Source: an uncultured Pseudomonadales bacterium (GTDB lineage: Bacteria; Patescibacteriota; Microgenomatia; UBA1400; Chazhemtobacteraceae). Taken from it: a stretch of 64,000 nucleotides of DNA. Of this stretch, positions 20,630-35,500 are shown piece by piece. The DNA lies in contig CAZUBK010000004.1 of assembly GCA_964618725.1 (NCBI GenBank), positions 79,485 to 143,484 on the forward strand, read 5' to 3'. Positions within the stretch are counted from its first letter, which is position 1. Each line of letters starts with the position of its first letter. The notes beneath the pieces are model-generated. The model saw nothing but the letters and a program-made list of their open reading frames with translations. It was not told the DNA's origin and searched no databases. The translations under genes and the position numbers were made by a program.

Positions 20630-20685
20630 TCTACCTCCTCATCGTCCTCTTGACAAAAGTCCACCAAACATGTTAAAAAGTATCT

Positions 20686-20946
20686 ATGTTTAATCAAACA
20701 CCACAAACTTATACACCAGAACAGGCTGCCCAGCTATTGCAGTTGTCCAAAAATACCATCTATGAACTAATCAATCGTGGCGAAATCGTTGCTAAGAAAC
20801 TGGGCAAGGTCTATCGTATCCCCCGAAGTTCTCTCTCGTTCATCTTCACTGGTCTGGACACAGATCTCTACCGAGCAGAACGTCAAGATCTAAAGACTAT
20901 CAATAAAGTTGAAACTGTCCTTTCTCGGGTTCGCCAACAACTATGA
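20686..20946 (+). CDS. excisionase-family HTH protein, putative antitoxin
   Basis: YTPEQAAQLLQLSKNTIYELINRGEIVAKKLGKVYRIP. Its stop overlaps the downstream start (ATGA). Confidence 0.55.
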   Translation: MFNQTPQTYTPEQAAQLLQLSKNTIYELINRGEIVAKKLGKVYRIPRSSLSFIFTGLDTDLYRAERQDLKTINKVETVLSRVRQQL

Positions 20947-21377
20947 AATTCAAAGCAAGAATCTTTCTTGACTCAGACGTCATTATCTCCTCCCTCATCT
21001 CCACTACAGGCGCCGCCCATCTCCTGACTCGTACCTCTCAACTCGATTTATATATCTCAAATCATTCTCAAAAGGAATTAGCAATTGTCGCCACTCGTCT
21101 TAAACTAAGCCACCCCAAATTACATTCCCTAATTAAACAATTTACCGTCATTACTTCTGATCAAACGCTAAATAAGATAAAGAAAGAGTTTTCTCAATAT
21201 ACAAATGATCCAAATGATAGTCATATCATCGCTGGAGCTGCACAAAGTCAAGCAGATTTCCTGATTACATATAACCTTAAACATTACAAAATCGAAACGA
21301 TCAAACGCCAATTGAATTTTATGATTCTCACACCAGGGCAATTTCTCCAATATCTCAGATCACTCTCTTCATCTTAA
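20943..21377 (+). CDS. putative PIN-like toxin partner
   Basis: MKFKARIFLDSDVIISSL... matches a PIN-like N-terminal motif; the weak call is partly supported by gene context. Confidence 0.45.
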   Translation: MKFKARIFLDSDVIISSLISTTGAAHLLTRTSQLDLYISNHSQKELAIVATRLKLSHPKLHSLIKQFTVITSDQTLNKIKKEFSQYTNDPNDSHIIAGAAQSQADFLITYNLKHYKIETIKRQLNFMILTPGQFLQYLRSLSSS

Positions 21378-21392: not shown

Positions 21393-22220
21393 CTAAAGTA
21401 CTAGAATCAAATAAGCCAGCCCCAGTCCTATCGCCCCAACTCCTAGTGTCAATAATACTTGTACTACCACTGCCATTTGGATCCTCGCCCCCGCCAACGG
21501 ATTCCTCCCTATTGCCTCTACTCCTGCTTTGGCTACTCGACCAAAGTATATAAATCCAACTACAAACGACACAACCACTATCACCGCTGCCGCTAAGTAA
21601 CGTAATGCGGACAACGGATCCAAAAACGGAACACTCAAACCCTCTCTTAATGTCTCAAATAGATTCTCTCCGATACTCTGTAAATTCAAACTAGGATGCA
21701 CTTTTATCGACACCTCTATTTGCCCCACTTGGTTAGGATCACCACTCTCCCATCCTTCCAGTGCCGTCCCCAAGACAAATCCGTTCTTAACCGCCTTCAC
21801 TCCGATTCCCGGCGTTGTTGAGCTAGTAACTAGATCTCCCTGAACGATTGCTCCTCTGGAAGCATTCACCCGTACCACCGCCCTTCCAGAGGTAATGACT
21901 GAAAACGAATTAGGTATGTTGGTCGCTACAATTGCCGCCGCCGGGCTCGCTACGACTACTCCAAACATCTCCACCTGAAACTCTTGGTTACACAAAACAT
22001 ACTCGTCTCCCGCGTTACAAATGACACTACCAAGTGGCACTTCCCCCTCCGTAACAGTTACCGGTATTGCTACCCCCAAGTCAATTGACTGAGCCAGGAC
22101 TTGTCCAGAAGATCCCATCATCAATAAAAACATCAAAACCAAGAAAAAGAAATTCTTCATTACTTTCAATGTAACAAATTTCTCCAATTTAGAGATATCT
22201 AAAAAAACCCTTGTATTCAC
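21393..22220 (-). CDS. hypothetical secreted/membrane protein
   Basis: N-terminal signal/TM segment. The C-terminus has a two-helix hairpin ...VAKAGVEAIGRNPLAGARIQMAVVVQVLLTLGVGAIGLGLAYLILVL. Confidence 0.5.
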   Translation of the reverse strand: MNTRVFLDISKLEKFVTLKVMKNFFFLVLMFLLMMGSSGQVLAQSIDLGVAIPVTVTEGEVPLGSVICNAGDEYVLCNQEFQVEMFGVVVASPAAAIVATNIPNSFSVITSGRAVVRVNASRGAIVQGDLVTSSTTPGIGVKAVKNGFVLGTALEGWESGDPNQVGQIEVSIKVHPSLNLQSIGENLFETLREGLSVPFLDPLSALRYLAAAVIVVVSFVVGFIYFGRVAKAGVEAIGRNPLAGARIQMAVVVQVLLTLGVGAIGLGLAYLILVL

Positions 22221-24229
22221 TTCCTAAGAATGCCACAATCAACCCCATGTCCGCCCAACAACAAACCAAAGCCTTTGATACCCTTTCCTTAATCAGTCTT
22301 TTTGCCATCGTCTTCCTCCTACCTCTTATCTTCCTCCCCTCCTTTGTCAACTCGCATATTACCGGCAAGCTGACCCTTCTTGGTATCGGCCTTACCCTCA
22401 TTCTCGCTTCCAAAATCGCCAAGACCCTAATTAACAGAAGGCTTGAGATCACTTTAAGCCACTTTGACTTGCCTATTTTCTTTTTTGCCCTCATATACAT
22501 AGTAGTTACCTTCCTCCGCACTCCCAATAAGATGGAAGCTTTCTTCCTCCCCGGCACCACCAGCTTCGTCATCGCCGGCACCATCCTCTACTTCAGCCTC
22601 ACCCAGCTTTCGGCAAAGCTTAGACAGACCGTCCTTACCACCCTGATTCTCTCGGGAATCCTCGTCAACTTTATTTTCACCCTTTCCCATACCGGCGTCT
22701 TTGCCAAACTAAACGTCTTCCCTGCCTTTCTTAACACCAGTTTCACCACTTTCGACGGTGTTTTGGCCCAGACTATTTTCACCATTACCCTCCTCCTCAT
22801 TCTACTTAGCCAATTAGCCAGCAAACCCAAAAACCCAACCAAAGGTTTCTTCCTTGTTTCTCTAGTTCTTCTCACTATTGGCAGTTTCTTCTCCGTCAAC
22901 AGCCTTCTTCCGGGCAAAACACTCTCACCCCAACTTCTTGGCTTCAAGGACTCCTGGGTCATCATGGTCGACAGCATCAAAGAAAAGCCCTTCCTCGGCA
23001 GCGGCCCGGGCAACTTCGTCAGCGCCTTTGCCCGCTTCAAGCCCCTCGACATCAACAACACCGATCAATGGAACACCCTTCATGCCACCTCCCGCAATCT
23101 ATATTTCACCATTGCTACCGAAACCGGACTACTTGGAGTCCTCCTTATTATCATCTTCCTCCTCTACTGGATCAAAGTCTTAAGAACTACCTCAAACAAT
23201 CTCCCACAGGGATCTTCGATCTACTTAGCCTGTCTCTTCCTTCTCTTGGCTCTTGTCTTTTTCCCAACCTCCAGTAGTCTCCTTGTCATTCTCTTCCTTC
23301 TCACTGGACTAGCTTCACCAGCCAAAAAACACTTGAAACTAGAAAACAAAATCGTCCTCCTGGGTACCACTCTTCCGCTTATTATCGCTTTGGCAGCCTT
23401 CGTCTTCTTTGGCGGTTCAGCCCTTGCCGCTGAAAACCATTACAAAAATGCCCTAAGCAGCCCCAATGCCCAGTATGTCTTTGAAGAGCTAAGAAAGGCG
23501 ATTAAGGCAAGCCCCTATGTCGACCGCTACCACCTCACCTTCTCTCAAGTTAACATCAACCTAGCCGCCAATCTCTTCAAAAAAGGCCAGTTGAGCGAAG
23601 ACGAACAAAAATCCCTCAACCAATTGATCGACCAAGGCATCAACCAAGCCAAGATCTCAGTCAATTTGAATCCGCAAAGAGCCAGCAACTGGGAAATCCT
23701 AGCTAACATCTACCAATCCCTTACCCGCATTGCCAAGGGTGCCGACGAATTTGCCTACACCGCCTATCAGCAGGCCATCACCCTCCATCCCTACAACCCT
23801 ATCCCCCGTCTTTCCCTTGGAGGCCTCCTATATACCCAAGGTCGTTTCCAAGACGCTGTACGGGTCTTAGAAATGGCCGCCCTCACCAAACCAGACCACG
23901 CAAATATCCGTTACAACCTGAGCCTTAGCTACCGCGAAGCCAATCAAGTCGACCAAGCCATCGAACAACTAAACACTCTCCTCACTCTAATTGAGAAGGA
24001 CTCAAAAGACTACGAACTAGTTAAGGCCCTTCTTGATCAACTTGCGTCACGCAAAAAATCAGAAGCCCCCTCCGGTGAGGAGTTGACCGCTCCAGTAGCC
24101 CCTCCCAAACGACCCATCACTCCCCCTCTAGAACTTCCCGATACTTCCGCTCCACCAGAGAATCCTCTCCCCGAAGCGACACCCACTCCCACTTCGACAG
24201 AGAATCCTACCCCAACACCCTCCATATAA
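22211..24229 (+). CDS. O-antigen ligase (Wzy_C) family membrane protein with C-terminal TPR repeats
   Basis: Polytopic. ...FLGSGPGNFVSAFARFKPLDINNTDQWNTLHATSRNLYFTIATETGLLGVLL... matches the ligase loop. TPR-like repeats and a Pro-rich tail follow. Confidence 0.7.
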   Translation: MYSLPKNATINPMSAQQQTKAFDTLSLISLFAIVFLLPLIFLPSFVNSHITGKLTLLGIGLTLILASKIAKTLINRRLEITLSHFDLPIFFFALIYIVVTFLRTPNKMEAFFLPGTTSFVIAGTILYFSLTQLSAKLRQTVLTTLILSGILVNFIFTLSHTGVFAKLNVFPAFLNTSFTTFDGVLAQTIFTITLLLILLSQLASKPKNPTKGFFLVSLVLLTIGSFFSVNSLLPGKTLSPQLLGFKDSWVIMVDSIKEKPFLGSGPGNFVSAFARFKPLDINNTDQWNTLHATSRNLYFTIATETGLLGVLLIIIFLLYWIKVLRTTSNNLPQGSSIYLACLFLLLALVFFPTSSSLLVILFLLTGLASPAKKHLKLENKIVLLGTTLPLIIALAAFVFFGGSALAAENHYKNALSSPNAQYVFEELRKAIKASPYVDRYHLTFSQVNINLAANLFKKGQLSEDEQKSLNQLIDQGINQAKISVNLNPQRASNWEILANIYQSLTRIAKGADEFAYTAYQQAITLHPYNPIPRLSLGGLLYTQGRFQDAVRVLEMAALTKPDHANIRYNLSLSYREANQVDQAIEQLNTLLTLIEKDSKDYELVKALLDQLASRKKSEAPSGEELTAPVAPPKRPITPPLELPDTSAPPENPLPEATPTPTSTENPTPTPSI

Positions 24230-24353
24230 TTTCCAAAACCGAAGCCATACCCGAAACAACTGCAAATTTGTACATTCAGCCTCAAAACTGTACAACTTTC
24301 ACGCTTCTCTTTCCTAACTCCGCTTCTTTCTTCTACTTACAAATTTCGCATTT

Positions 24354-24497
24354 AAGTTCTAGATACCTGTAAACAAAAACATTACGCAGACAGAAAAAGC
24401 CGGTTTCGAAACGAAGTGAAGAATTTTTCTAGTCGAGTAAGAGACTGGCCGAGTCGCTGGACGAGGAACATGTCGTTTTTTGTGACAGGTATTTGGA
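24354..24497 (+). repeat. ~145-bp dispersed repeat, copy 1
   Basis: About 85% identical to 39584..39727. Both copies begin GTTCTAGAT and end ATATTTrGAAyA, which are imperfect terminal inverted repeats. Confidence 0.6.
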
Positions 24498-24703
24498 ATA
24501 TCAGAAGTGCGAAAGTTGCACTAGATATTTCACTTCCTCCATTCTTCCCTCCAGTGTTCGCGTCATCAATCCATTCCCACTTTTACCTGTTGACTTCACC
24601 CACAAAATCCTTCATAAATTAATACTAGATAAAGTTGTACATTTAGCCTCAAAAAATATCTAAATTTTATATACAACTTTTCTCCAAAGACAAAACTGCC
24701 CAA

Positions 24704-27700
24704 ATGTCCGCCCAAAAACATACCCAAACTAGCGAAAATCAAACTCTCACCCTTACTCAAGCGGCGCAAATCCTGGACGTCAACATGGCCACCGTCCGCC
24801 GCTGGACTAACAATGGCAAACTCCCTTCTTTCCGTACTCCCGGAGGCCATCGTCGCCTCCACCAGGCCGATGTCGAAAAAATCGCCCTCCAAAAACAGCG
24901 CCGCCAACTTCTCAAGCAACAAGCCCTGGCCGATGCCATCCAAATCCAACAACTCGCTCTTCCTAAAACCCCCCTCAAACCAATCTCAAGTCTGCTCACT
25001 GAACCCTCCCTGAAAGTCATCGACTCTGACCCCCTCAACATTCCGCAAGCCGAAGGTCCCCGTGGGATCCCGTTAGGGATAGACAACAAATCCAAGTCTT
25101 CCTTTCGTTCCTTTCTCACCCTCGCTTTGATCCTTGCTACTCTTCTTGTTTCCTTCAAGGGAGTCAAAGCCTTTAGAGACACCATTGCCTACGAAACCCT
25201 CTACAACACTCTCCCCTTCTTGTCCCGTTTTACGGGATCCCCTCTCTCTCCTCTTACTCAAAACAAAATCACAGACAAATTAAAGGGTTCCGTCCTCCAA
25301 GCCACCGATACTGTCGAGGAACTAATCTTTGAAGTCAATATCCCCACGAATATTGATAATGACCTCAATGTCAGTGGTGATCTCACCGTCGATGGAGACC
25401 TCATCACTAATGGCAATGTTGCTTTTGACAGTATCTCTGCCGATACCGCAGACTTTGGTTCTGCCGACATCACCACTCTTAGTATCGGTGGTACTACTCT
25501 TACCTCCACTGCTACGGAACTAAACTACCTCGATGGCCTGACTCTCGCCGCTGGAGGTATTGCCTACTCTACCTCTACCGGTCTTCAGATCTCCGCTGCC
25601 GGCACCAGTAGCCAGGTTCTGACCAGCAACGGTAGCGGTGCCCCCACATGGAAGAGCGTTTCCAGTATCCAATCTACCGACGCCTCAACGCTGGACAGTC
25701 TTGACTCCACCGCCTTCCTGCGTAGTAACGCCGATGATACTTACGACTCCGGTAACACCTTAACCGTCGCCGGTGCTCTCGCAGTTTCTGGTTCCCTGAC
25801 CTCCACCGGAGACGTCAGCATCTCTGACACCAATATTGCCCTCAATGGCGCCACCACCACCTTTACCACCACCGGAGACTTAACTCTTGCTGTCGGGGGG
25901 TCCGACATCCTCTCAACTTCTCGAATGACTTTGGGCTCTGCCACTGCCGGAACTGCCCAACTTCTGATCGACGGCAACGCCGATGTCATCCAACTTCAAA
26001 TCCAAGGACACTCTACCCAAACCGCAAGCACCTTCGTCATTGAACAGTCCGATGGTACGGATGTGCTTGCGGTAGGCAACACCGGGGTCCTGACGCTCAC
26101 CAACAGCGGCACCACCAACACCACCTTCAACCTCTCCAGTTCCGGAGACTTCATCATTCAGGACAACGGCACCGCCTTCATCACCTTTAACAGCAGTGGC
26201 CAGGTCGTGGGAAGCGATACCCTTCTTTTCAATCTCTCCGCTGCCACCCATAATTCCACCACTCCCGAAGGTATCATTCTCCCTCAAGCCACTTCCTTTA
26301 CCTCTCCCTCTTCCGGAGAAGGTTACATTGCCTGGGACTCTGATGACAACAAGTTGATGATGTATACAGGTAGCGCCTGGGTTGACGTCGCTGCTGCTGG
26401 AGGATCACTCTGGACTGACGGAGGAACGACCACCTACCTCACCGCTACCACCGACGATCTCGCCGTTGGCGGCACCGACTCGGAAAGCAACCTCTTCTTT
26501 GATGAGTCCGCCTCCGCCCTCTCTCTTAACCCCTATGGCACTTCTGCCGGTAATACTGGTGAATTAAGGTTTGAAGAGTTAGAAGCCAACGGTGACTCCT
26601 ACACTGGATTCAAAAGTCCCGATTCGCTAGCCGCCAATGTCGTCTACACTCTCCCTTCTGCCGACGCTACTACCAGTAACCAAGTCCTCGCCTCCTCTGC
26701 CGCCGGCGTTCTCTCTTGGATTGACGTCTCTGCTGGTGCCGGCACTCTCTGGACCGATGGAGGTACCACTACCTACGTTACCTCTACCACCGACGATATC
26801 GCTATGGGAGGAACTACCGCCGAATCCCCTTTCTGGATGGACGTCTCTGCTTCCCTTCTTAATCTCAACCCCTACGGCACTTCTACCGGCAATACCGGTG
26901 CTTTTGTCTCCCAAGAACTCGAAGCCAATGGCGACTCCTACACTGGTTTCAAAGCTCCAGACTCTTTAGCCGCTTCTGTCGTCTACGCTCTTCCCCTTGC
27001 CGATGCCTCCTCTGCCAACCAAGTCCTTTCGAGTAACGCCTCTGGTACCCTCGCCTGGATTGACGTCACTGGCGGTGCTGGTGCTCCCTGGACTACTTCC
27101 ACCACCAATACATATCTCACTACCACCACCAACGACGTCATCGTCGGTGCTTCCACCCCCGTCTCCTCTGCCAAACTTAGTGTCGATGGTGATGACGACC
27201 AGATTCAACTTGTCGTCCAAGGTAATGCCACTCAAACCGTCGCCACCCAACTCTTCCTCGTCGAGACCTCTGCCGGATCAGATCTTTTTTCCGTTGATGT
27301 CAACGGCGACTTAGTTCTCTCTGGCGAACTCGACATCAACGGTACCGGTACCCACGACATCGCAGGAACATTAAACCTCTCCGGGACAACCTTAACTGCC
27401 AGTGGCGACCTCACCATCACCCCCGTTGGTGGAGACGTCATCCTGGGATCCTCTGTGGCGCTTACCGCTTCCAAAATTAACAAAGTCATCGTCGTCGACG
27501 GCACCACCTATGCCCAGACGTGTGCCGGCATCAATGCCGCCATTGATGCGCTGGGAGCTAGTGGAGGAGAGATATACCTCCCCGAAGCTACTTACACCTG
27601 TACCGAAACGATAACGGTGGATTACAACAACACCACCATACGGGGCGCGGGGAAAGGGAGTAAAATTGTCGCGTCCGCTTGGGGTAGCTGGGGGACGCCG

Positions 27701-30700
27701 GGGGATGTGATAACGACTGGGACCACCGACTACAATAGTTTCCGTGATTTTCAGATTGACGGAACGCTTTTGACGGCACAAGCCTATGATCTTCTCGATC
27801 TCCCCAACGGTTCCAACTACATCGTGATTGACGGACTCTACCTAAAAAATAGTGATCGATACGGGATAAACATCAATCCCGGCGGAGCCTTCGTCATGAT
27901 CACCAACAGTATCATCGAAGGGTCAGATAGCTATGGCATTGTGGCTGATAACACCTCGGCGTATACCAATATTGCCAATAACATCATCCGCACAAACGAT
28001 TATGGTATCGTCATCGCGGGTGATTTCGTCGACGTAAGTAACAACATTATCACCGGCAACACCACCGCCGGTATTTCCGCAACCGGTTGGGGCGAGGATG
28101 CGACGATTACCGGCAACACCTTTTTTTCCAACGGGACGTATGGGGTATATGTCAGCGGTACAGGCTTTGATACCAATAACAATGTCACCATTTCCGGTAA
28201 TGAATTTAAAACGCATACCAACGGCGTTTATCTAAATAACACCAAGCAGGTAGCAGTGGTCGGCAATAACATTTTCCAATACTCCACCCAAGCCGGGCAG
28301 TATGGCGTGTACATAACCGGTGCTTCTGCTGATCCGGCCAACAGCAATCTGATTTCCAATAACGTCATAACGGGCTATACCGATGCCGGGGATATAGGTA
28401 TCTACATCGTCAACAGTTATGCCAACAATAACATCCTTTCTTACAATAGCTTTTCCACCAACGAAACAAACATCACGGATAATGGTGTTAACACACAGAT
28501 CAGCAATGCTGACTCCGGTAATCTTAGTATCGGCGGTGCCGACTCCACCCCAGACACCACCCTTGAACTCTTCCGTGCTTCAGGTTCCGACTCCACTTTC
28601 AGTATGACCGACGGTGACGTCGCCCATGGAGTTACTACGCTTGCCAATACTGACGCCTTCTTCCACGCTGGCCCCATCTCCTCCACCGTTGGTGGTACTA
28701 GACTAACTTCTCTTGCCGATGCTGATGGCCAAGCCCTGGAACTAAGAGCAGTCCAAACTGCTCCTACTGATACCACCCCCGCCATTAAACTCGTCGGTGC
28801 CAAAGCCTCTGGAACTGGAGTAGTTGACCTTGATGCTGCAGAGACTGTCTTTCAGGTGGCAAATAACGACGACGCGGCAGCACTTACTGTCTTAGGATCC
28901 GGGTCAGTCGGGATCGGTGATACCACTCCAGACGCCGTTTTCGACGTCGATTCCACTTCAGCTACCGCCGTCATTTTTGGCGACGGCACCAGTAACTACT
29001 TTACCTTTGACGGTTCCACCGATGTTGGCGACACTTTGTTTACCTTCACCGGAGCCAGTTCGGGAATAACTTCCGGAAAAATACTTTCCGTAGTCGCCGA
29101 TACCATCACAACTGGCAATGCGTTAGATTTCTCGGTTGATGGCATCTCCACTGGAAATGGCATGTATTTGGAATCTACTTCAACCGCCCTCTCCTCAGGC
29201 AATATTGCCTCGTATTACTGGAATCCTGGGAGTGCCACTACCGCAACCGGCGACATTCTGCGGCTAGATGTAGGGAGCAATGGGACCATCGGAAATATTC
29301 TAAACGTGATGAACGGTGGTTCTTCAGTCTTTTCTGTATCACAATCCCAAATTACTAGTGCATTACCCCATCAGTTTACCGCCGCAGGAGATGTATCCAT
29401 CGCCTATGACTTGCAATTTACTAACCAGACTGCTTCCTACATAAAGTCGTATGCCCCGTTGTATATCGAAGCAGGAGAGACGTTTGAAAACAACGACTTA
29501 ACCTTGAGAACCTATGGAACTGGTGATGTGATTTTGGATTTCACCACTTCAACGGGAACCGGAAAGTTACAGATTGCCGCGCCTGATCCATCCATCGTTT
29601 TCGATACCGAAACAGCCACCGATACTGACTTTTGGATGGGGGTAGTTGAAGACGCGGGCGCAGATGATGACGACACCTTCCAGATTGGTGATGGCACCAC
29701 TCCTGGAACCAATCCCTGGTTAGTCTTAGATACCAGTGGTAACGTAGGTATTGGTCCAGACACCACCCCAGATTACAAGTTCGAGATCAATGTGGCCGCC
29801 AGCAGCGACTCAACCTTCGCCTTAGTGGACGGTGACGTCGCCCACGGTGTCACCACCCTCGTCAACACCGATGCCTTCTTCCACGCTGGCCCCATCTCCT
29901 CCACTGTTGGTGGTACTAGACTTACTTCTCTTGCTGACGCTGACGGTCAAGCATTTGAGATCAGTGCTGTTCAAACCGCTCCCACCGATACCACTCCTGC
30001 TATTAAACTAGTTGGTGCCAAAGCCTCTGGTACTGGAGTCGTTGACCTTGATGCCGCCGAAACTGTCTTTCAAGTGGCAAACAATAATGACACGGCAGGG
30101 ATTACCATGCTTGGTGATAGTTCTGTCGGTATTGGAACCGTCACACCCAGCTCCTTTGCTAATAAACTCGCAGTTATATACTCAGTTAGTGGCATCACCG
30201 GTGGTACCAGCGGCACTTTCCAAAATACTTTTACTCCCACGGCGAATACCGCCGGTAGCCCTATCGCTCTCAAAGCCGCCACCACAGTCAGCGGTGGATC
30301 AACTAACTACTCCTCGGCCAATACTGCTATACGGGCACAAGCAAGTAATGTGAATAACACAGGTTCATTAACCACCACCTATGGCGTATATTCCCAACAC
30401 GGAGCCCTTTCCGGAGGAACAACCGGATCTTCTGCCGCCTCTTATGGCGTTTACTCTGATACCGCCTGGAGCTCATCAGCTACATTGGCATCTGCCTATA
30501 ACTATGCCGCAGTTATTTCGGCCAACTCTGGCACCTTCACCAATACTTATGGATTCTATGCTGGTGACCTGACTTCTGGCACTCAAAGTAACACTCCTTT
30601 CTCTTTCTATGCTTCAGATACGGGTACATTCAATTATTTCGGTGGTCGTACTGGCATCGGCGACACCTCACCTCTTGGTATGCTCGAAGTCAGTAGCGCC

Positions 30701-32086
30701 TCTGTTGATACTTACGGCAAAGCCCTTGCCATCTTCAACCACGATGAGACCGAGGACTTGCTAACAGCCTCTGCCTCCAGTGTCACCAAGTTTGCTGTCA
30801 GTAGTACCGGTGCCCTGTACGTTGGTGACAACACCACCCTTGGTACCTCTACTGCCCTTTGTTGGGAATCGGTGACGCGTAATGGTGCCACCGTCTACCA
30901 GGTAGGTGACTGTACCGGTACCCCCGGAGACTATGCCGAAATGTATCCGGTGGAGAATGATATCACTTATGGAGACGTCGTGACGCTAGGAACTGAGAAT
31001 GTCGTCCAAACAGACGGACAGATTGTGAAGAGATTAGTTAAGAGTAGTCGAGAGTATGACAGCAGTGTCGTCGGTATTGTCAGCAACAACTACCACGACT
31101 TTACCTTAGCAGGGAGCGCCTCTCTTAACTCCTCCGACAACCCCATGCCAGTCGCTCTCAGTGGACGTGTTCCCGTTAAAGTCTCCACCTCCTCGGCTGA
31201 AATCCAAGCCGGTGATTTTTTGACTACTTCTACCGAGGCAGGTAAGGCGATGAAGGCAACAGTCAGTGGTTATGTCATTGGTAAGGCCCTGGAAGACTGG
31301 AGTCCTGGCCAAACCACGGTGATGGTATTTGTCAACAACACCTATTACTCAGGGATTGCTCTCAATGAGCAAGGACAAACAGGAGTAACTGCCAATTCAG
31401 ATACAGAAGGTACTATACCTTCCGATGAGCAAGTCCTTGCTAAAGATCTTCAAGACAATCAGTATGCTTCACAGTCCGCTGCACTCAAACAAGAGATTGA
31501 CACCTTAAGTTCCAAGGTAACTGAGTTGACCACAAACCTCGACTCCCTCACCTCTCTTGTCCTCAGTGCCTCCGACTCCGCACTCGTAAATCCTGAATCA
31601 TATATCTTAAATCTCAACGATGAAACTGCCACAGTTTCGTCGTTGATGGTCACAGACAAACTTCTCACTCAGGATCTTGGCATCACCGGCTCCCTCACCA
31701 GTGGCCTTCTCACAATCAACGGTCTCAACGGCGACATCCATACCCTCGCCGGCCCCTTACGTCTTCAATCCTCTCCCCTTGCTTCTTTAACAGAAGGTAT
31801 TGAAATCCTAAATGGCTACCTTACCATCGATACTAAAGGTAACCTAAACATCAACCAAGGACATATTAAAGGCAATGATACCTTCCGTGGCTCCATTACC
31901 CTACCCACAGGTAAAATCAAAGTCACTGTTCCTCAAGAGTGGGAGACCGTACCTACCTCCATTACCTTGACCCCAAGTTATCTCACCGTCACCGCCATAA
32001 CTAATATCACCACTGACGGCTTCACTATCGAAGTCCTGACCCCCTCTCTTAAAACAGAGAAGATATACTGGACCGCCATTTGGTAG
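24704..32086 (+). CDS. giant 2460-aa protein: N-terminal excisionase-type HTH, one TM helix, then a repetitive beta-helix surface domain
   Basis: N-terminus LTLTQAAQILDVNMATVRRWTNNGKLPSFRTPGGHRRL. TM helix FLTLALILATLLVSF. PbH1-like repeats NNIITGNTTAGIS...ISGNEF. Three ~113-aa tandem repeats and a ~340-bp internal duplication. C-terminal coiled-coil. Confidence 0.8.
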   Translation: MSAQKHTQTSENQTLTLTQAAQILDVNMATVRRWTNNGKLPSFRTPGGHRRLHQADVEKIALQKQRRQLLKQQALADAIQIQQLALPKTPLKPISSLLTEPSLKVIDSDPLNIPQAEGPRGIPLGIDNKSKSSFRSFLTLALILATLLVSFKGVKAFRDTIAYETLYNTLPFLSRFTGSPLSPLTQNKITDKLKGSVLQATDTVEELIFEVNIPTNIDNDLNVSGDLTVDGDLITNGNVAFDSISADTADFGSADITTLSIGGTTLTSTATELNYLDGLTLAAGGIAYSTSTGLQISAAGTSSQVLTSNGSGAPTWKSVSSIQSTDASTLDSLDSTAFLRSNADDTYDSGNTLTVAGALAVSGSLTSTGDVSISDTNIALNGATTTFTTTGDLTLAVGGSDILSTSRMTLGSATAGTAQLLIDGNADVIQLQIQGHSTQTASTFVIEQSDGTDVLAVGNTGVLTLTNSGTTNTTFNLSSSGDFIIQDNGTAFITFNSSGQVVGSDTLLFNLSAATHNSTTPEGIILPQATSFTSPSSGEGYIAWDSDDNKLMMYTGSAWVDVAAAGGSLWTDGGTTTYLTATTDDLAVGGTDSESNLFFDESASALSLNPYGTSAGNTGELRFEELEANGDSYTGFKSPDSLAANVVYTLPSADATTSNQVLASSAAGVLSWIDVSAGAGTLWTDGGTTTYVTSTTDDIAMGGTTAESPFWMDVSASLLNLNPYGTSTGNTGAFVSQELEANGDSYTGFKAPDSLAASVVYALPLADASSANQVLSSNASGTLAWIDVTGGAGAPWTTSTTNTYLTTTTNDVIVGASTPVSSAKLSVDGDDDQIQLVVQGNATQTVATQLFLVETSAGSDLFSVDVNGDLVLSGELDINGTGTHDIAGTLNLSGTTLTASGDLTITPVGGDVILGSSVALTASKINKVIVVDGTTYAQTCAGINAAIDALGASGGEIYLPEATYTCTETITVDYNNTTIRGAGKGSKIVASAWGSWGTPGDVITTGTTDYNSFRDFQIDGTLLTAQAYDLLDLPNGSNYIVIDGLYLKNSDRYGININPGGAFVMITNSIIEGSDSYGIVADNTSAYTNIANNIIRTNDYGIVIAGDFVDVSNNIITGNTTAGISATGWGEDATITGNTFFSNGTYGVYVSGTGFDTNNNVTISGNEFKTHTNGVYLNNTKQVAVVGNNIFQYSTQAGQYGVYITGASADPANSNLISNNVITGYTDAGDIGIYIVNSYANNNILSYNSFSTNETNITDNGVNTQISNADSGNLSIGGADSTPDTTLELFRASGSDSTFSMTDGDVAHGVTTLANTDAFFHAGPISSTVGGTRLTSLADADGQALELRAVQTAPTDTTPAIKLVGAKASGTGVVDLDAAETVFQVANNDDAAALTVLGSGSVGIGDTTPDAVFDVDSTSATAVIFGDGTSNYFTFDGSTDVGDTLFTFTGASSGITSGKILSVVADTITTGNALDFSVDGISTGNGMYLESTSTALSSGNIASYYWNPGSATTATGDILRLDVGSNGTIGNILNVMNGGSSVFSVSQSQITSALPHQFTAAGDVSIAYDLQFTNQTASYIKSYAPLYIEAGETFENNDLTLRTYGTGDVILDFTTSTGTGKLQIAAPDPSIVFDTETATDTDFWMGVVEDAGADDDDTFQIGDGTTPGTNPWLVLDTSGNVGIGPDTTPDYKFEINVAASSDSTFALVDGDVAHGVTTLVNTDAFFHAGPISSTVGGTRLTSLADADGQAFEISAVQTAPTDTTPAIKLVGAKASGTGVVDLDAAETVFQVANNNDTAGITMLGDSSVGIGTVTPSSFANKLAVIYSVSGITGGTSGTFQNTFTPTANTAGSPIALKAATTVSGGSTNYSSANTAIRAQASNVNNTGSLTTTYGVYSQHGALSGGTTGSSAASYGVYSDTAWSSSATLASAYNYAAVISANSGTFTNTYGFYAGDLTSGTQSNTPFSFYASDTGTFNYFGGRTGIGDTSPLGMLEVSSASVDTYGKALAIFNHDETEDLLTASASSVTKFAVSSTGALYVGDNTTLGTSTALCWESVTRNGATVYQVGDCTGTPGDYAEMYPVENDITYGDVVTLGTENVVQTDGQIVKRLVKSSREYDSSVVGIVSNNYHDFTLAGSASLNSSDNPMPVALSGRVPVKVSTSSAEIQAGDFLTTSTEAGKAMKATVSGYVIGKALEDWSPGQTTVMVFVNNTYYSGIALNEQGQTGVTANSDTEGTIPSDEQVLAKDLQDNQYASQSAALKQEIDTLSSKVTELTTNLDSLTSLVLSASDSALVNPESYILNLNDETATVSSLMVTDKLLTQDLGITGSLTSGLLTINGLNGDIHTLAGPLRLQSSPLASLTEGIEILNGYLTIDTKGNLNINQGHIKGNDTFRGSITLPTGKIKVTVPQEWETVPTSITLTPSYLTVTAITNITTDGFTIEVLTPSLKTEKIYWTAIW

Positions 32087-32128: not shown

Positions 32129-32509
32129 ATGAACACAAAAATCAAAGACTTCACCGATCTGAAATCCTGGCAAGAAGCACATAAGCTAGTTCTTGACATA
32201 TACAAGGCGACCAGGTCTTTTCCCAAAGAAGAAACTTACTCACTAACCGACCAGATCCGCCGCGCAGCCGTATCAATTAGCAGTAATATCGCTGAAGGAT
32301 TCGGCAGACAAACATACAAAGAAAAAGTCCAGTTTTACTATCTAGCCCAGGGGTCACTTGTCGAGGTCAAAAATCAACTGTTTATTGCCAAAGATGTTGG
32401 ATATCTAAACCCACAATCATTTGCCACGTTAATGAGACAGGCCAATATTGCTCACCAGCTATTGCAGGGCTTAATCACCAAATCAAAATCTTTTATTCGT
32501 AAATCATAA
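32129..32509 (+). CDS. four-helix-bundle protein (23S rRNA IVS protein / Avd-like family)
   Basis: ...SWQEAHKLVLDIYKATRSFPKEETYSLTDQIRRAAVSISSNIAEGFGRQ...YYLAQGSLVEVKNQL... is characteristic of the family. Confidence 0.8.
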   Translation: MNTKIKDFTDLKSWQEAHKLVLDIYKATRSFPKEETYSLTDQIRRAAVSISSNIAEGFGRQTYKEKVQFYYLAQGSLVEVKNQLFIAKDVGYLNPQSFATLMRQANIAHQLLQGLITKSKSFIRKS

Positions 32510-32514
32510 ATCTG

Positions 32515-35500
32515 ATGTCTAAAATCTTAAATCATAAATCTTATCTCATAAATCGTAGATCTCGGTTGCTGTTAAAACTTGGTCTTCTCTTTCTCTCTAT
32601 TACCCTCCCCATCGCCCTCCTCATCGCCCAAAACCCCAAAACCGTGGGAGCCGCCTGGTGGAACGGTGACTGGAAATACAGAAAAGTCATCCCCATCAGC
32701 TCTCATACCGCTGCCGAAACCAACGTCTACATCGCCATTACGGCTTATGACGCCTCCGACACAACCCGCTACCAGACCGACTGCGGCGACGTTCGCTTTA
32801 CCAAATACAGTGGCGAACTTTTGCCCTACACCGTCACTAGCTGCGGCGCTTCTACCACCTTTAACGTCCTCTTTGACACCTTCCCCGCTGGCGCCCAGGA
32901 TATCTATCTCTATTACGGCAACGGCAACGCCGCCAACGGTTTTCAAACCACCGCCTTTTCTACCCAAGCATCCGCCTATGTCATCGGCACTACCGGTTCT
33001 GAAGCCACCACCCCCGGTCCCGTTGCCTACTGGAAATTTGACGAAGGCCAGGGGCAGATCATAAATGATCAAACCACCCATAATAATGACGGTACCCTGG
33101 GCGCCGATTCTTCTTCCGCCTCCGACGACCCCACCTGGGTAGAAGCAGGCCGCTGTGTGAGCGGCAAGTGTTTGAGTTTTGACGGCAGCAATGACTTCGT
33201 AAATTATACTGGCTTGCCAACCCTTTTTTCCGATTGGGGAAGCACGTCGTTCTCCATGAGCACATGGTTTAAGACGATTGATAACGCCACTGATCGAGGT
33301 GTCTTTGGTTCATACGCTGCTAATGACATTGTTCAAATGAGAATAAATCCAAACTCAGATAATAAATTATCAGTCTACATGAGAGGATCCGCTAGTTGTG
33401 GTTGGGTCTCAAGTAATTCTGCAGTAGCAAATAACCAGTGGTACTACGCTACGATGGTGTACGATAGAACAAACTTGTATCTTTATGTTAATGGTCAGCT
33501 GCAAAATTCAACTGCATGCAACATAACGAGCGTTAATTTAAGTACATTTAGTGTGGGAAAGGTCACAGGAGCAGCTTCGTCGTTTACAGGCTTCATCGAC
33601 GAACCCAAAATTTATCCCTACGCCCGCACGGCAGCGCAGGTAAAACTGGATTACGATCAGGGCGCCCAGGCGGTGCTGGGCAGCACCAACACCGTCGGCG
33701 GCTCACCGGGATTTTTAAGCAATGGCTTGGTGGGGTACTGGAAACTCGACGAATCTTCCAGTACCGCCGCGGATTCTTCAGGCAATAGCAACAGTGGCAC
33801 TTGGAACGGCACTGCCGCTGCAGCTGCAGGTAAATTTGGTAATGGCATCTCCCTAGACGGAGACAGTGACTACGTCAGCATCGGAGACACAGAATTAATC
33901 AGCACAGCCTTCACCACCTCCGTCTGGTTCAAACCTGACAACGTCACCCAAACCGGCCCTATTATCAGCAAATACACTACTACAGGTGACAATAGGTCGT
34001 ACATCATCAGACTCGACTCTAATGATTATTATTTTGCCCTTTCCAGTGACGGCACCAGTGCTAGCGGCAAATTTGACCAGCTCACCGTCAGCAACGTAGT
34101 TAGCGCCAACGTCTGGCAGTTGGCTACCGTCACCTACGACGGCACCACCGTCAAAATGTTCCTCAATGGCAGTGAGGTTGGATCTTTTGCTCATACTGGC
34201 GGAGTTTATGCCAGCGGAACTGCTTCACTATTATTCGGTAACCAATCTACTAACTATTTTGACGGCACGCTCGACGAAACCCGCATCTACAATCGCGCCC
34301 TGTCCGCCGCCGAAGTCCGCCAGCTCTACTCCTGGGCGCCCGGGCCAATTGGCCGTTGGAACCTTGATGAGGGGACAGGCACCTCTGCTGCAGATGATAG
34401 TGGAAATAGCAATACTGGGACGATTACCGATCCAACCTGGATAAATGGAAAATTTGGCAAAGCCCTTTCTTTCAATGGAACAAGTGCAGAGGTAAACATC
34501 GGAGATACAGATAACACCTCTGGTATGCTGACCATTTCTGCATGGATCAAACCAAACACCGTCAGCGGTGGGTATGATGCCATCTATGGAGAAAGCGGCT
34601 TTGGATTTTACAACTTCAATGGCGTTCTAACCTTGTGGACATCAGCGTTTACTGGAGGCACGGGTACGCTTACTGTTAATCAATGGCAACACGTAGCCGC
34701 AACATTTGACTCCAGCACCGATTCCATTTATTTCTACATTAATGGGACTCGCGTGTACAGTAAAACAAACTGGACAGGCACGGTGCCCAACGATGCAAAC
34801 ACAGAATTTATTGGTTCCTATAACGGTAGTCAGGAATGGTTTTCAGGTTTAATCGACGACATGCGCATCTACAACTACGCCCGCACGGCCGGGCAAATAA
34901 TGGAAGACATGAATGCCGGGCATCCAGTGGGCGGCTCGCCAGAAGGCTCCCAGGTTATCTACTACAAATTTGATGAACAACAAGGCAGTACCGCCAATGA
35001 CACCGTTGGCAACCAAAACGGCACCGTTACCAGTGCCAGTTGGCTGACTAAAGCAAGCTGCAAAATTAACGGCTGTTTAAGCTTTGACGCCGCCGGCGAA
35101 GTCGTAACTATCGCCACCGCCAACGACAGTGTGGTTGATTTTAACAGTAGCGAAACCTTCTCCGGCTCCGCCTGGGTCTATGTCACTACTATGCCCGGCT
35201 CTGGGGAACAAGATGCCATCATTGCCAAATGGGACGATACCGGAAATCTTGCCGATTACAAACTCTACGTCGAAAACGACGACGCCGATACCACCGGCAA
35301 CTTTGAGGTCCAGATCTATGATGAATCCGCCAGCCAAGCCATCACCGCCAGCCAGGCCATTGACCAGGTAGCCGTCAACACCTGGTATCACGTTTCTTTC
35401 ACCTTTAACGGCGGCACAGCTGGCGCCGCCGGCGACCTCAAACTCTACGTTGGTGGCAAATATACCGCTCAAAACGCGGCCAATACTTCCTTCTTGGGGT

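What the first reader, a model, noticed from the sequence alone, without database searches (positions are those of the whole stretch)
24704..32086. Giant transmembrane protein with a cytoplasmic excisionase-type HTH and a ~2300-aa beta-helix ectodomain
The first ~115 aa form an excisionase/MerR-like HTH (LTLTQAAQILDVNMATVRRWTNNGKLPSFRTPGGHRRL). A single TM helix follows (FLTLALILATLLVSF), then a Thr/Gly/Ser-rich region of about 2300 aa. That region carries pectate-lyase-like PbH1 repeats, three ~113-aa tandem repeats, a duplicated ~340-bp module and a C-terminal coiled-coil reminiscent of tail-fibre or adhesin tips. A DNA-binding domain fused through the membrane to a huge surface structure is a ToxR/CadC-like one-component topology taken to an extreme. 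I do not know a described family with this architecture. A standalone paralog of the HTH exists at 7812..8027.
Basis: partly seen in the sequence, partly recalled or inferred. Interest (0 to 1): 0.75.

Follow-up and report, generated by a model that had tools for sequence, protein, structure and literature searches.

The report
Membrane-anchored DNA-binding giant surface fibre
A 2,460-residue surface fibre built from phage-tail-fibre-like parts is held in the membrane by one helix whose cytoplasmic end is a BldC-type DNA-binding domain, and repeats resembling that domain's binding site sit on the gene's own promoter, so the fibre may be wired directly to its own gene.

Summary
ORF 24704..32086 (+) is one uninterrupted 2,460-aa gene with four parts:
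- an N-terminal BldC/excisionase-type winged HTH (Pfam HTH_17 above cutoff; AF2 model 1.3 Å from BldC);
- a disordered linker;
- one hydrophobic helix (aa ~134-153);
- a T/S/G-rich ectodomain made of a beta-helix, duplicated modules and a phage decoration/tail-fibre-like C-terminus.

The fusion is not an assembly error. Of the best 150 matches to the HTH profile, 49 of the 52 that are at least 600 aa long show HTH(x1-2)-TM-large ectodomain. All 11 of the 19 full-length homologues that carry the HTH show a single TM after it. In eight related contigs the gene sits in a conserved Patescibacteria locus: an ~255-aa membrane protein (-), then the HTH-giant (+), usually followed by a second large gene (+).

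Three new results:
- Every BldC DNA-contact residue checked except K26 and K33 is invariant.
- A BldC-box-like motif, AAnTT(G/A)(G/T)ACA, mostly as inverted pairs, abuts a TTGACA promoter upstream of the giant gene in 8 of 10 loci (11 observed, 0.76 expected, 0 of 2000 shuffles).
- The motif appears to co-vary with the residue equivalent to BldC K26.

Best reading: a membrane-tethered, ToxR-like-in-topology regulator that controls its own gene and is fused to a tail-fibre-like adhesin. DNA binding and function are untested. I found no published description.

The parts
24264..24299 (.). Distal operator-like inverted repeat AAATTTGTACA-N14-TGTACAACTTT
   Evidence: Found by the repeat finder as I9 and D1. 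Exact motif matches in the 64-kb window cluster in this intergenic region.
24590..24620 (+). Promoter-like element: TTGACT (-35), a 17-19 nt spacer, then CATAAATT (-10-like)
   Evidence: Read from the sequence. The CTTGAC -35 aligns in all five orthologous upstream regions compared. The consensus scanner did not call it.
24631..24680 (.). Proximal operator-like inverted repeat AAAGTTGTACA-N26-(A)TATACAACTTT, between the promoter and the start codon
   Evidence: The same motif class lies upstream of the giant gene in L004, L005, L009 and L017-L020. Enrichment is 11 observed against 0.76 expected, reached by 0 of 2000 dinucleotide shuffles.
24704..32086 (+). Giant ORF, 2460 aa
24743..24886 (+). 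BldC/excisionase-type winged HTH (aa 14-61)
   Evidence: Pfam HTH_17; NCBIfam excise and HTH_BldC; PDB profile hits to BldC at 1e-14 and RacA at 5.5e-8. AF2 pLDDT is 90-98, and Foldseek places it 1.3 Å from BldC 6amk_A over 48 aa at 44% identity.
24863..24955 (+). Long helix following the HTH (aa 54-84), then a low-confidence linker (aa 85-129)
   Evidence: AF2 model. The linker is not conserved in the alignment.
25103..25162 (+). Single transmembrane helix (aa ~134-153, core F137-F151)
   Evidence: Hydropathy scan, AF2 helix at aa 130-174, positive-inside statistics over 61 family members.
26375..27052 (+). Two tandem 113-aa repeats (aa 558-670 and 671-783)
27806..28150 (+). Right-handed beta-helix (PbH1-type) region, aa ~1035-1149
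   Evidence: Pfam Beta_helix E=9e-11 and NosD E=7e-8.
28577..28930 (+). Duplicated 118-aa module, copy 1 (aa 1292-1409)
29795..30148 (+). Duplicated 118-aa module, copy 2 (aa 1698-1815), 85% identical to copy 1
30929..31348 (+). C-module beta domain (aa 2076-2215), starting with the conserved D-x-A-E motif; phage decoration/cement-like fold
   Evidence: AF2 pLDDT is mostly 82-94, with dips to 50-65. Foldseek matches Borrelia phage BB1 decoration proteins, phi29 gp8.5 and XM1 gp53. Sequence hints are sub-threshold: phi29 gp12 autochaperone 3gqh, Peptidase_G2 and K1-lyase_C.
31433..31561 (+). Long alpha-helix (aa ~2244-2286), putative coiled coil
   Evidence: AF2 secondary structure, at low confidence.
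31886..32083 (+). C-terminal beta-sandwich knob (aa ~2395-2460)
   Evidence: AF2 pLDDT 86-95. Foldseek matches the Pam1 tailspike receptor-binding domain, R-pyocin fibre tips and H-type lectins.
21393..22220 (-). Conserved partner gene: 275-aa membrane protein whose beta domain is homologous to the giant's C-module
   Evidence: phmmer E=4e-13. Positional orthologues sit divergently next to the giant gene in L003, L004, L005 and L017-L020.
22211..24229 (+). Wzy_C-like polytopic protein with TPR repeats, immediately upstream
   Evidence: Pfam TPR_19 at 1.6e-12 and a weak Wzy_C hit. Similar genes lie beside the giant gene in L003 and L004.
32515..37071 (+). Downstream second giant gene, 1518 aa, DUF2341 plus 6x Laminin_G_3
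   Evidence: Pfam. A large gene follows the HTH-giant in L004 and L017-L020; it carries LamG domains in L004, L019 and L020.
7812..8027 (+). Stand-alone BldC-like HTH paralogue (71 aa)

Best explanation
The gene encodes a type-II (N-in) membrane protein of a Patescibacteria (CPR) bacterium.

The C-terminal ~2300 aa form a fibre resembling a phage tail fibre or tailspike. It contains a beta-helix, duplicated beta modules, a decoration-protein-like domain, a long helix and a lectin-like distal knob. By analogy with those phage modules it is probably a trimer, and it probably acts in adhesion to, or degradation of, a host surface.

The N-terminal ~85 aa stay in the cytoplasm as a BldC-type winged HTH that binds DNA. 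Its most likely target is the set of BldC-box-like half-sites AAnTT(G/A)(G/T)ACA that abut or overlap the -10/start region of the gene's own promoter. In some genomes the same motif also lies before the divergent partner gene.

The membrane-installed protein would therefore repress, or otherwise set, its own transcription: a one-component, ToxR-like-in-topology feedback that counts installed fibres. Oligomerisation of the ectodomain would bring several HTHs together for cooperative binding.

Shown here: the architecture, the fold, conservation of the DNA-contact residues, conservation of the fusion and of the locus, and the position and enrichment of the motif. Inferred: the trimeric state, binding of this particular HTH to this motif, the sign of regulation, and any link to host contact.
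For: Architecture.

DNA-binding fold: HTH_17 and TIGR01764 score above their cutoffs. Profile hits reach BldC at 1e-14 and the RacA DNA-binding domain at 5.5e-8. The AF2 model lies 1.3 Å from DNA-bound BldC.

Contact residues: BldC residues T27, R30, W31, H46, R47 and R48, and interface residue G44 (PMC5859096), map to T30, R33, W34, H49, R50, R51 and G47. All of these are invariant in 12 giant-protein HTHs.

The fusion is real and widespread. All 11 HTH-bearing homologues among the 19 full-length ones have a single TM after the HTH. Of the top 150 cluster representatives, 52 are at least 600 aa long, and 49 of those show HTH then a single TM then a large ectodomain of up to 5310 aa.

Operator: the motif lies directly after TTGACA-N17-19-TAAT-like promoters in the window and in L004, L005, L009 and L017-L020. 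In 250-nt upstream windows it occurs 11 times against 0.76 expected, reached by 0 of 2000 shuffles. In loci not used to define the motif it occurs 6 times against 0.59 expected, again 0 of 2000. All 6 exact AASTTGKACA matches in ~286 kb lie in these intergenic regions. The half-site fits the BldC consensus AATTNNNN(C) and resembles the optimised whiI site AATTCGGACA. The arms are not always complementary (L004, L017), which favours a DNA site over an RNA hairpin.

Covariation: where the residue equivalent to BldC K26 is K, half-sites read (G/A)GACA. In this window it is A and half-sites read GTACA. In P0001 and P0002 it is D and the motif is absent.

Phage-fibre nature of the ectodomain.
Against: - No experiment supports any of this. 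The motif could instead be bound by another regulator, for instance the stand-alone BldC-like paralogue at 7812..8027.
- BldC binds direct repeats head-to-tail, whereas most sites here are inverted pairs.
- The core TTG(G/T)ACA is one insertion away from a -35 hexamer, so extra promoter-like elements are not excluded.
- Two of ten loci (L001, L003) lack the motif.
- The covariation rests on few lineages, and those are not phylogenetically independent.
- The HTH_BldC score (54 bits) is below NCBIfam's cutoff of 77.
- The hydrophobic core is short (15 aa), and topology was not tested with a dedicated predictor.
- Relatives with 2-8 tandem HTHs before the TM look more like avidity-driven DNA tethers than classical regulators.
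- Some family members carry a plain signal-anchor instead of the HTH (P0010, P0014, P0017, P0019), so the fibre can work without it.
Confidence: 0.5

Rival explanations
1. RacA-like DNA tether. The cytoplasmic HTHs do not regulate transcription. They fasten the chromosome, or particular loci, to the membrane at the base of the fibre, for polarity, segregation or positioning of the nucleoid under the attachment organelle. The promoter-proximal sites would be just one set of anchoring sites.
For: The HTH profile hits the B. subtilis chromosome-anchoring protein RacA (5i41, E=5.5e-8), and the AF2 model matches the RacA-DNA complexes. Relatives carry 2 to 8 tandem HTH copies before the TM helix, for example P0024 with 8, which suits avidity-based tethering. 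The recognition residues are nearly invariant across very different ectodomains, as expected of a generic docking module.
Against: In the sequence available, the motif is concentrated on the gene's own promoter rather than spread over the region. Its position abutting the -10/start region is typical of an operator. Whole genomes were not scanned, so other sites may exist.
Confidence: 0.22
2. Proteolytically released regulator. Host contact, or shedding or self-cleavage of the ectodomain, triggers intramembrane proteolysis that frees the HTH to act as a soluble BldC-like factor. This would resemble RIP of anti-sigma factors, cleavage-dependent activation of CadC, or MYRF.
For: A Peptidase_M50 (site-2 protease family) gene lies in the window at 596..1411. 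The C-module starts with a conserved D-x-A-E motif that aligns with residue 1 of the phi29 gp12 autochaperone (3gqh). Two family members hit Peptidase_G2. MYRF shows that a phage-tailspike chaperone domain can drive release of a membrane-bound transcription factor (PMC3742443).
Against: The putative self-cleavage site (G2075|D2076) is extracellular and about 1900 residues from the membrane, so cleavage there cannot by itself free the HTH. M50 proteases are nearly universal. The Peptidase_G2 and 3gqh matches for this protein are sub-threshold (E=0.076). No conserved cleavage motif was seen in the variable linker.
Confidence: 0.13
3. The HTH is not used for DNA. It is a cytoplasmic protein-interaction or biogenesis handle, as the HTH of RodZ binds MreB. 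The upstream motif would belong to a different regulator.
For: RodZ is a precedent for the layout HTH - TM - extracytoplasmic domain with a non-DNA role (established knowledge, not tested here). MreB is encoded in the window at 11208..12218. A juxtamembrane motif FPxLYxxL recurs in several homologues. One relative, P0003, carries a different N-terminal domain, an integrase SAM-like domain.
Against: Six BldC DNA-contact residues (T27, R30, W31, H46, R47, R48) are invariant, which would not be expected if DNA binding had been lost. The alternative domain in P0003 is also a DNA-binding module. The motif resembles a BldC box and co-varies with a recognition-helix residue.
Confidence: 0.1
4. Artefact. 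Two genes, a small excisionase-like regulator and a secreted giant protein, were fused by a sequencing or assembly error, or the true start codon lies after the HTH.
For: None found. The gene has no obvious Shine-Dalgarno sequence.
Against: The same fusion appears in dozens of independent assemblies from NCBI, ENA, JGI and Logan. The stop-to-stop frame opens only at 24647. There is no Met between M28 and the TM helix, so no HTH-less isoform could still carry the anchor.
Confidence: 0.02

Closest known systems
ToxR-like receptors (ToxR, TcpP, CadC, PsaE, VtrA): membrane-integrated one-component regulators
   Same: An N-terminal cytoplasmic DNA-binding domain, one TM helix and an extracytoplasmic C-terminal domain. 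The protein binds promoter DNA while still in the membrane (CadC: PMC5430869).
   Different: The DNA-binding domain here is MerR/BldC-type, not the OmpR/PhoB winged helix. The outer part is a ~2300-aa structural fibre built of phage-like modules, not a small sensor domain. The host is a monoderm-like CPR bacterium. The inferred target is the gene's own promoter.
BldC (Streptomyces developmental regulator; PDB 6AMA, 6AMK)
   Same: The closest relative in sequence and structure: 44% identity and 1.3 Å. Six DNA-contact residues (T27, R30, W31, H46, R47, R48) are conserved, and the candidate half-site fits AATTNNNN(C).
   Different: BldC is a free 68-aa protein that multimerises head-to-tail on direct repeats. 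Here the domain is tethered to the membrane, is followed by a longer helix, and the sites are mostly inverted pairs. The HTH_BldC subfamily cutoff is not reached.
RacA (B. subtilis chromosome-anchoring, kinetochore-like protein; PDB 5I41, 5I44)
   Same: A MerR-like winged HTH used to attach DNA to the cell envelope; significant profile and fold matches.
   Different: RacA reaches the membrane indirectly, through a coiled coil and DivIVA (established knowledge). Here the HTH is covalently joined to a TM helix and a surface fibre.
MYRF (myelin regulatory factor)
   Same: A membrane-bound DNA-binding protein that has recruited a bacteriophage tailspike assembly/self-cleavage module (PMC3742443).
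   Different: In MYRF the phage domain (Peptidase_S74) lies between the DNA-binding domain and the TM helix on the cytoplasmic side, so cleavage frees the factor. Here the phage-like modules are all outside the cell. The DNA-binding folds are unrelated (Ndt80 against MerR-like).
Phage tailspikes and tail fibres with C-terminal assembly domains (phi29 gp12 pre-neck appendage, K1 lyase/endosialidase-type, R-pyocin fibres)
   Same: A right-handed beta-helix, a C-terminal decoration/chaperone-like beta domain, a long helix and a distal knob.
   Different: This gene is chromosomal, lies in a conserved housekeeping context rather than a prophage, and is anchored by an N-terminal TM helix with a cytoplasmic HTH instead of a virion-attachment domain.
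RodZ
   Same: The layout cytoplasmic HTH - single TM - extracytoplasmic domain.
   Different: RodZ has an XRE-type HTH that binds MreB rather than DNA (established knowledge), and its outer domain is small.

Membership tests
Pfam HTH_17 / TIGR01764 excisionase-family DNA-binding domain | Profile score above the curated cutoff | tested here: met
   HTH_17 scores 42.2 bits against a cutoff of 27. TIGR01764 scores 36.2 against 28.8.
BldC family (NCBIfam NF033787) | Score at or above the subfamily cutoff of 77 bits | tested here: not met
   54.3 bits, E=9e-15. It is BldC-like but not a member by NCBI's criterion.
BldC family | Small stand-alone wHTH protein with no other domains | tested here: not met
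   The domain is the N-terminus of a 2460-aa membrane protein.
BldC family | Conserved DNA-contact residues (T27, R30, W31, H46, R47, R48) and interface residue G44 | tested here: met
   T30, R33, W34, H49, R50, R51 and G47 are invariant in 12 sequences. Residue roles are taken from PMC5859096. K26 is A in this protein and K33 is N.
BldC family | Binds AT-rich AATTNNNN(C) direct repeats as head-to-tail multimers | not testable with these tools
   Candidate sites fit the 9-mer but are mostly inverted pairs. Binding was not measured.
Canonical MerR-family regulators | N-terminal wHTH | tested here: met
   MerR_1 scores 23.2 bits against 21.6. Fold matches to CueR, CadR, SoxR and MtaN.
Canonical MerR-family regulators | Antiparallel coiled-coil dimerisation helix followed by a C-terminal effector-binding domain | tested here: not met
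   A helix at aa 54-84 is followed by a disordered linker and a TM helix. No effector domain was found.
ToxR-like receptor family | OmpR/PhoB-type winged-helix DNA-binding domain (Trans_reg_C) | tested here: not met
   No Trans_reg_C hit; the domain is MerR/BldC-type.
ToxR-like receptor family | Topology: cytoplasmic N-terminal DNA-binding domain, single TM, extracytoplasmic C-terminal domain | tested here: met
   Hydropathy, AF2 and positive-inside statistics. No dedicated topology predictor was run.
Phage pre-neck appendage / Peptidase_G2 tailspikes | Beta-helix followed by a Peptidase_G2 (IMC) self-cleaving domain | tested here: inconclusive
   The beta-helix is present. Peptidase_G2 is not significant for this protein but is hit by 2 of 13 aligned homologues (best 5e-9). 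3gqh gives E=0.076. By Foldseek the fold is closer to phage decoration proteins. Cleavage cannot be tested here.
RacA-type chromosome anchors | MerR-like wHTH plus a C-terminal coiled coil that binds DivIVA | tested here: not met
   The wHTH is similar, but anchoring here would be through a covalent TM helix. No RacA-like C-terminus was found.
Trimeric autotransporter adhesins | C-terminal YadA-type beta-barrel anchor | tested here: not met
   No such Pfam hit. The C-terminus is a soluble beta-sandwich knob. Two distant homologues are labelled this way by JGI, but the defining feature is absent.

The most novel reading that the evidence does not exclude
A previously undescribed class of Patescibacteria envelope organelle. 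A phage-derived, probably trimeric surface fibre carries BldC-type DNA-binding domains on its membrane anchor, so the state of the host-contact apparatus (installed, oligomerised, loaded or lost) is passed to the chromosome with no soluble messenger. This could work by occupying an operator on its own promoter, by physically docking the nucleoid beneath the attachment site, or both. It would function together with a conserved ~255-aa ring-like membrane partner and a LamG-rich second giant protein.
Probability: 0.3. Interest if true: 0.85.

Novelty: new variant of a known kind. Interest (0 to 1): 0.7.

Why it matters
Patescibacteria (CPR) make up a large share of bacterial diversity, and the cultivated ones live attached to host cells. 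They encode few recognisable regulators, and little is known about how they sense or control attachment.

This protein appears to be a conserved, syntenic, fast-evolving surface fibre. Its cytoplasmic tail has the fold and contact residues of a characterised DNA-binding protein, and a matching site-like motif sits on its own promoter.

If binding is confirmed, it would be one of the simplest links yet between a surface structure and gene expression. It would be the first ToxR-like topology I know of built on a MerR/BldC domain. It would also be another case, besides MYRF, of phage fibre modules recruited into a membrane-bound DNA-binding protein.

The work also yields a concrete, cheaply testable prediction: about 85 aa of protein and about 60 bp of DNA.

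Tried and rejected
- Tandem Repeats Finder found no arrays in the gene. The repeats are too divergent and were recovered with the repeat finder and BLASTP instead.
- A word-indexed homologue search with the N-terminal 233 aa returned only 4 small proteins. The same search with the C-terminal profile returned mostly proteins under 815 aa, many of them fragments. Neither gave statistics on N-terminal domains.
- The exact protein is not in the contig index.
- Rfam found only tRNAs in the window. The ~230-nt nested inverted repeat upstream folds only modestly better than shuffles (z = -2.1), so I make no RNA claim.
- A strict scan for tandem BldC sites (AATTNNNNC twice at 9-bp spacing) found nothing upstream of the gene. 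The operator emerged only from comparing orthologous leaders.
- I first read the leader palindromes as lineage-specific hairpins. I revised this after aligning more loci.
- Prophage origin is rejected. The flanks are housekeeping genes and synteny is chromosomal.
- The alternative N-terminal domain is verified only in P0003 (Phage_int_SAM_1, 5.9e-8). P0018 gave no significant hit.
- Seven literature searches found no description of this architecture. The library does not cover most subscription-journal papers.
Full report

Window 24704..32086 (+) is a single 2460-codon ORF starting at ATG. Pfam places HTH_17 on aa 15-61 (E=9.5e-11, above cutoff), with weaker MerR/MerR_1 hits, and Beta_helix/NosD on aa ~1035-1149.

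A Kyte-Doolittle scan finds exactly one hydrophobic segment in the whole protein. Its core is F137-F151, flanked by R135 and K152. The remaining 2300 aa are T/S/G/A-rich with only four Cys.

DNA and protein self-comparisons correct two details. There are two full 113-aa tandem copies (aa 558-783, 68% identical) plus about 44 nt of a third. A 118-aa module is duplicated at aa 1292-1409 and 1698-1815 with 85% identity.

The stand-alone paralogue at 7812..8027 is a 71-aa HTH_17/BldC-like protein. A third HTH_17 ORF (20677..20943) precedes a PIN gene.

**2. The N-terminus has a DNA-binding fold.**

NCBIfam gives HTH_BldC at E=9e-15 (below the subfamily cutoff) and TIGR01764 'excisionase family DNA-binding domain' above its cutoff.

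A profile of 12 giant-protein HTHs hits several solved structures:
- BldC (6AMK/6AMA) at 1e-14;
- a CarH-like protein;
- the chromosome-anchoring protein RacA (5I41) at 5.5e-8;
- CarH, BrlR, TipA and CueR.

An AF2 model of aa 1-175 has pLDDT 90-98 over aa 11-80. Its topology is α1-α2-β1-β2-α3. A low-confidence linker (aa 85-129) follows, and then a long helix (aa 130-174). Foldseek superposes the model on DNA-bound BldC at 1.3 Å over 48 residues with 44% identity. The next best matches are RacA-DNA, mycobacteriophage Xis and MerR-family regulators.

The BldC paper lists T27, T29, K33, W31, R47, R48, H46, R30 and K26 as DNA contacts, and G44 as essential for the head-to-tail interface (PMC5859096). 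With an offset of +3 these map to T30, R32, N36, W34, R50, R51, H49, R33, A29 and G47. In the 12-sequence alignment T30, R33, W34, R44, T45, G47, G48, H49, R50 and R51 are invariant.

**3. The fusion is genuine and widespread.**

A full-length search returned 19 giant homologues of 1483-4304 aa. Eleven carry PF12728 at the N-terminus, and in all eleven a single TM follows the HTH.

An exhaustive HMM search with the HTH profile against 1.84 billion cluster representatives gave 36,695 hits at E≤1e-3. The top 150 are biased towards tandem-HTH proteins. Fifty-two of them are at least 600 aa long, and 49 of those have N-terminal HTH(s), a single TM within 400 aa after the last HTH, and an ectodomain of up to 5310 aa. 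Across the wider set of 61 members the HTH-to-TM distance is 11-203 aa, median 45. One protein has eight tandem HTHs before the TM.

Across those 61 members, K+R in the 15 residues before the helix averages 2.9 against 2.0 after it (before > after in 36 members, the reverse in 10). This fits an N-in topology.

Some relatives replace the HTH with a plain signal-anchor. One (P0003) carries a phage-integrase SAM-like domain instead, which is itself a DNA-binding module.

Relatives found in GTDB species genomes are labelled Paceibacterota, Nomurabacteria, Saccharibacteria, Kerfeldbacteria, Uhrbacteria and 'Patescibacteria group'. A few automated 'Gammaproteobacteria' labels sit on contigs with the same gene content. 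The second refutation criterion, a fusion artefact, is not met.

**4. The ectodomain is a phage-fibre-like structure.**

An AF2 model of the last 430 aa has three confident or recognisable parts:
- a beta domain at aa 2076-2215;
- a long helix at aa ~2244-2286, at low confidence;
- a terminal beta-sandwich at aa ~2395-2460.

Foldseek matches the first to phage decoration/cement proteins: Borrelia phage BB1, the phi29 gp8.5 base and XM1 gp53. It matches the last to tailspike and R-pyocin fibre tips and to H-type lectins.

At sequence level, Pfam gives sub-threshold XM1_gp53 and Phage_cement_2 hits for this protein. Among 13 aligned homologues, K1-lyase_C is hit by four and Peptidase_G2 by two. 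The profile touches the phi29 gp12 autochaperone 3GQH at E=0.076, and its residue 1 aligns to the conserved D of a D-x-A-E motif at D2076. From memory, gp12 cleaves itself just before that Asp. Self-cleavage at G2075|D2076 is therefore a lead, not a result.

Together with the PbH1 beta-helix, the outer part reads as a tail-fibre- or tailspike-like appendage, probably trimeric, with a distal binding knob.

**5. Genomic context.**

The window is ordinary chromosome. It encodes:
- Peptidase_M50, sigma-70, MreB, ComEC and LeuRS;
- NDK and a Peptidase_M16-like protein, assigned by eye from the translations and matching Pfam-annotated genes in the syntenic loci L001 and L005;
- ComM and DprA.

Eight related contigs share an arrangement: iPGM (-), an ~242-264-aa protein with no Pfam hit (-), an intergenic region, then the HTH-giant (+). 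In L004 and L017-L020 a second large gene follows; it carries DUF2341/LamG domains in L004, L019 and L020.

In this window the small partner is 21393..22220 (-). It has a signal peptide and a beta domain homologous to the giant's C-module (E=4e-13). It also has a conserved C-terminal two-helix hairpin with the motif 'EAIGRNPLAG'. A Wzy_C/TPR gene lies between this partner and the giant gene, and a four-helix-bundle gene lies between the giant gene and the LamG giant.

These homologues are thus positional orthologues of one conserved locus. The ectodomain of the giant protein varies from 1483 to 3420 aa.

**6. A conserved operator-like motif (new).**

Upstream of the ORF there is a promoter-like element: TTGACT, 17-19 nt, then CATAAATT (24590-24620). 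Directly after it lies the inverted repeat AAAGTTGTACA-N26-TATACAACTTT (24631-24680). A second copy, AAATTTGTACA-N14-TGTACAACTTT, lies at 24264-24299. Matches to AAANTTGTACA with at most one mismatch number 13 in the window against 4.3 expected, and five of them cluster in this intergenic region.

Aligning orthologous leaders showed a conserved CTTGAC -35 followed by related half-sites. In L004, L005, L009 (five sites), L017, L018, L019 and L020 the sites follow the consensus AAnTT(G/A)(G/T)ACA. They usually occur as inverted pairs 12-14 nt apart, abutting or overlapping the -10.

The statistics are as follows:
- All six exact AASTTGKACA matches in ~286 kb of window plus loci lie in these intergenic regions.
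- In 250-nt upstream windows, AANTTRKAC occurs 11 times against 0.35 expected from the background rate and 0.76 from dinucleotide shuffles of the same windows, reached by 0 of 2000 shuffles.
- In the seven loci not used to define the motif it occurs 6 times against 0.59 expected, again 0 of 2000.

The arms are not always complementary (L004: TTAGACA and TTGGACA; L017), which argues for a DNA site rather than an RNA hairpin. In L019 and L004 additional sites lie ~70-95 nt before the divergent partner gene.

The half-site fits BldC's consensus AATTNNNN(C). It resembles the optimised whiI site AATTCGGACA, including the 5'-TG-3' step that BldC R30 reads on the opposite strand.

There is also a hint of covariation. 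Proteins with K at the position equivalent to BldC K26, the residue that contacts guanines at bp 7-8, have (G/A)GACA half-sites. This window's protein has A there and has GTACA half-sites. P0001 and P0002 have D there and lack the motif. The sample is small and the lineages are related, so this is suggestive only.

**7. Mechanism.**

My preferred reading (confidence ~0.5) has three steps:
- The protein is inserted N-in and its ectodomain assembles into a fibre.
- The tethered BldC-type HTHs, clustered by that oligomerisation, occupy the operator on their own promoter and in some genomes on the partner gene's promoter.
- Occupancy sets expression according to how much protein is installed in the membrane.

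CPR cells are tiny, so a membrane-tethered factor can reach the nucleoid, as ToxR and CadC do in larger cells.

Rivals:
- a RacA-like DNA tether (~0.22), favoured by the tandem HTH arrays and the RacA similarity;
- release of the HTH by regulated proteolysis (~0.13);
- a non-DNA role with the motif bound by another factor such as the stand-alone paralogue (~0.1);
- an artefact (~0.02).

The first three are not mutually exclusive.

**8. Comparison with known systems.**

In topology it works like a ToxR-like receptor, but it fails that family's defining feature, the OmpR-type winged helix. Its DNA-binding domain is BldC-like, yet it is neither a stand-alone protein nor above the BldC subfamily cutoff. 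It shares with RacA the use of a MerR-like wHTH at the envelope. It shares with MYRF the combination of a DNA-binding domain, a membrane anchor and phage fibre modules, although in a different order.

Full-text searches found nothing describing HTH_17/BldC-TM-giant proteins. The library misses most subscription journals, so absence is not proof.

**9. Verdict.**

The finding is real, is not an artefact, and belongs to a large uncharacterised family. I class it as a new variant of a known kind: membrane-integrated one-component DNA-binding proteins combined with phage-like fibres. Interest is 0.7, because it yields a sharp, cheap biochemical test and bears on how episymbiotic CPR bacteria control their surface.

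Noticed in passing
window 21393..22220 (-): A conserved 275-aa partner protein with a signal peptide, a beta domain homologous to the giant's C-module (E=4e-13) and a C-terminal two-TM hairpin with the motif 'EAIGRNPLAG'. Positional orthologues lie next to the giant gene in seven other contigs.
   Followed up: partly
window 39740..40548 (-): DprA is split into two overlapping ORFs. One covers PF02481 positions 29-137. The other covers positions 145-210 plus DprA_WH. This is a frameshift, a pseudogene or an assembly error in a competence gene. It lies next to an intact ComM (38013..39551).
   Followed up: partly
window 24290..24521: Nested inverted repeats (arms of 19-24 nt) span ~230 nt of the intergenic region upstream of the giant gene. 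The RNA fold z-score is only -2.1 and there is no Rfam hit. This could be a structured leader, a MITE-like remnant or chance.
   Followed up: partly
window 32129..32509 (+): A four-helix-bundle protein (TIGR02436, E=9e-36) sits between the two giant genes. It has weak similarity to the DGR accessory protein Avd (E=6e-6). No reverse transcriptase was noticed in the window.
   Followed up: no
window 32515..37071 (+): A second giant protein, 1518 aa, with DUF2341 and six Laminin_G_3 domains. Its best NCBIfam hit is 'TafC family fimbrial protein', below cutoff. A large gene follows the HTH-giant in L004 and L017-L020, with LamG domains in L004, L019 and L020, so the two are probably co-transcribed.
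   Followed up: partly
window 22211..24229 (+): A polytopic Wzy_C-like protein with TPR repeats lies directly upstream of the Thr/Ser-rich giant gene, and similar genes recur in L003 and L004. It may be an O-glycosylation enzyme acting on the fibre.
   Followed up: no
window 20677..21377 (+) and 18006..18428 (+): An HTH_17 antitoxin-like ORF (E=1.5e-14) is followed immediately by a PIN-domain gene. A second, solitary PIN gene lies 2.5 kb upstream.
   Followed up: no
whole window: GC skew is strongly negative throughout (-0.08 to -0.44 in 2-kb windows), including over plus-strand genes. In the giant gene this probably reflects the Thr/Ser/Ala-rich codon content. Elsewhere it probably reflects the predominance of minus-strand genes.
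   Followed up: no
window 4793..7498 (-): A 901-aa ORF with almost no family assignment. The only hit is a sub-threshold Lactamase_B_2 match, and the protein contains an HGHQDH motif.
   Followed up: no
P0024, P0031, P0033: Relatives with 5-8 tandem BldC-like HTH domains. P0024 has eight followed by a TM helix. P0031 and P0033 have their arrays internally or at the C-terminus without a following TM. These suggest multivalent DNA binding.
   Followed up: partly
homologue N-termini: A cytoplasmic juxtamembrane motif, (F/Y)PxLYxxL followed by basic residues, recurs just before the TM helix in several homologues (P0001, P0002, P0004, P0011, P0015) but has diverged in this window's protein. A membrane-proximal extracellular motif, VL(Q/G)A...hNVP, follows the TM helix, including in homologues that lack the HTH.
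   Followed up: no
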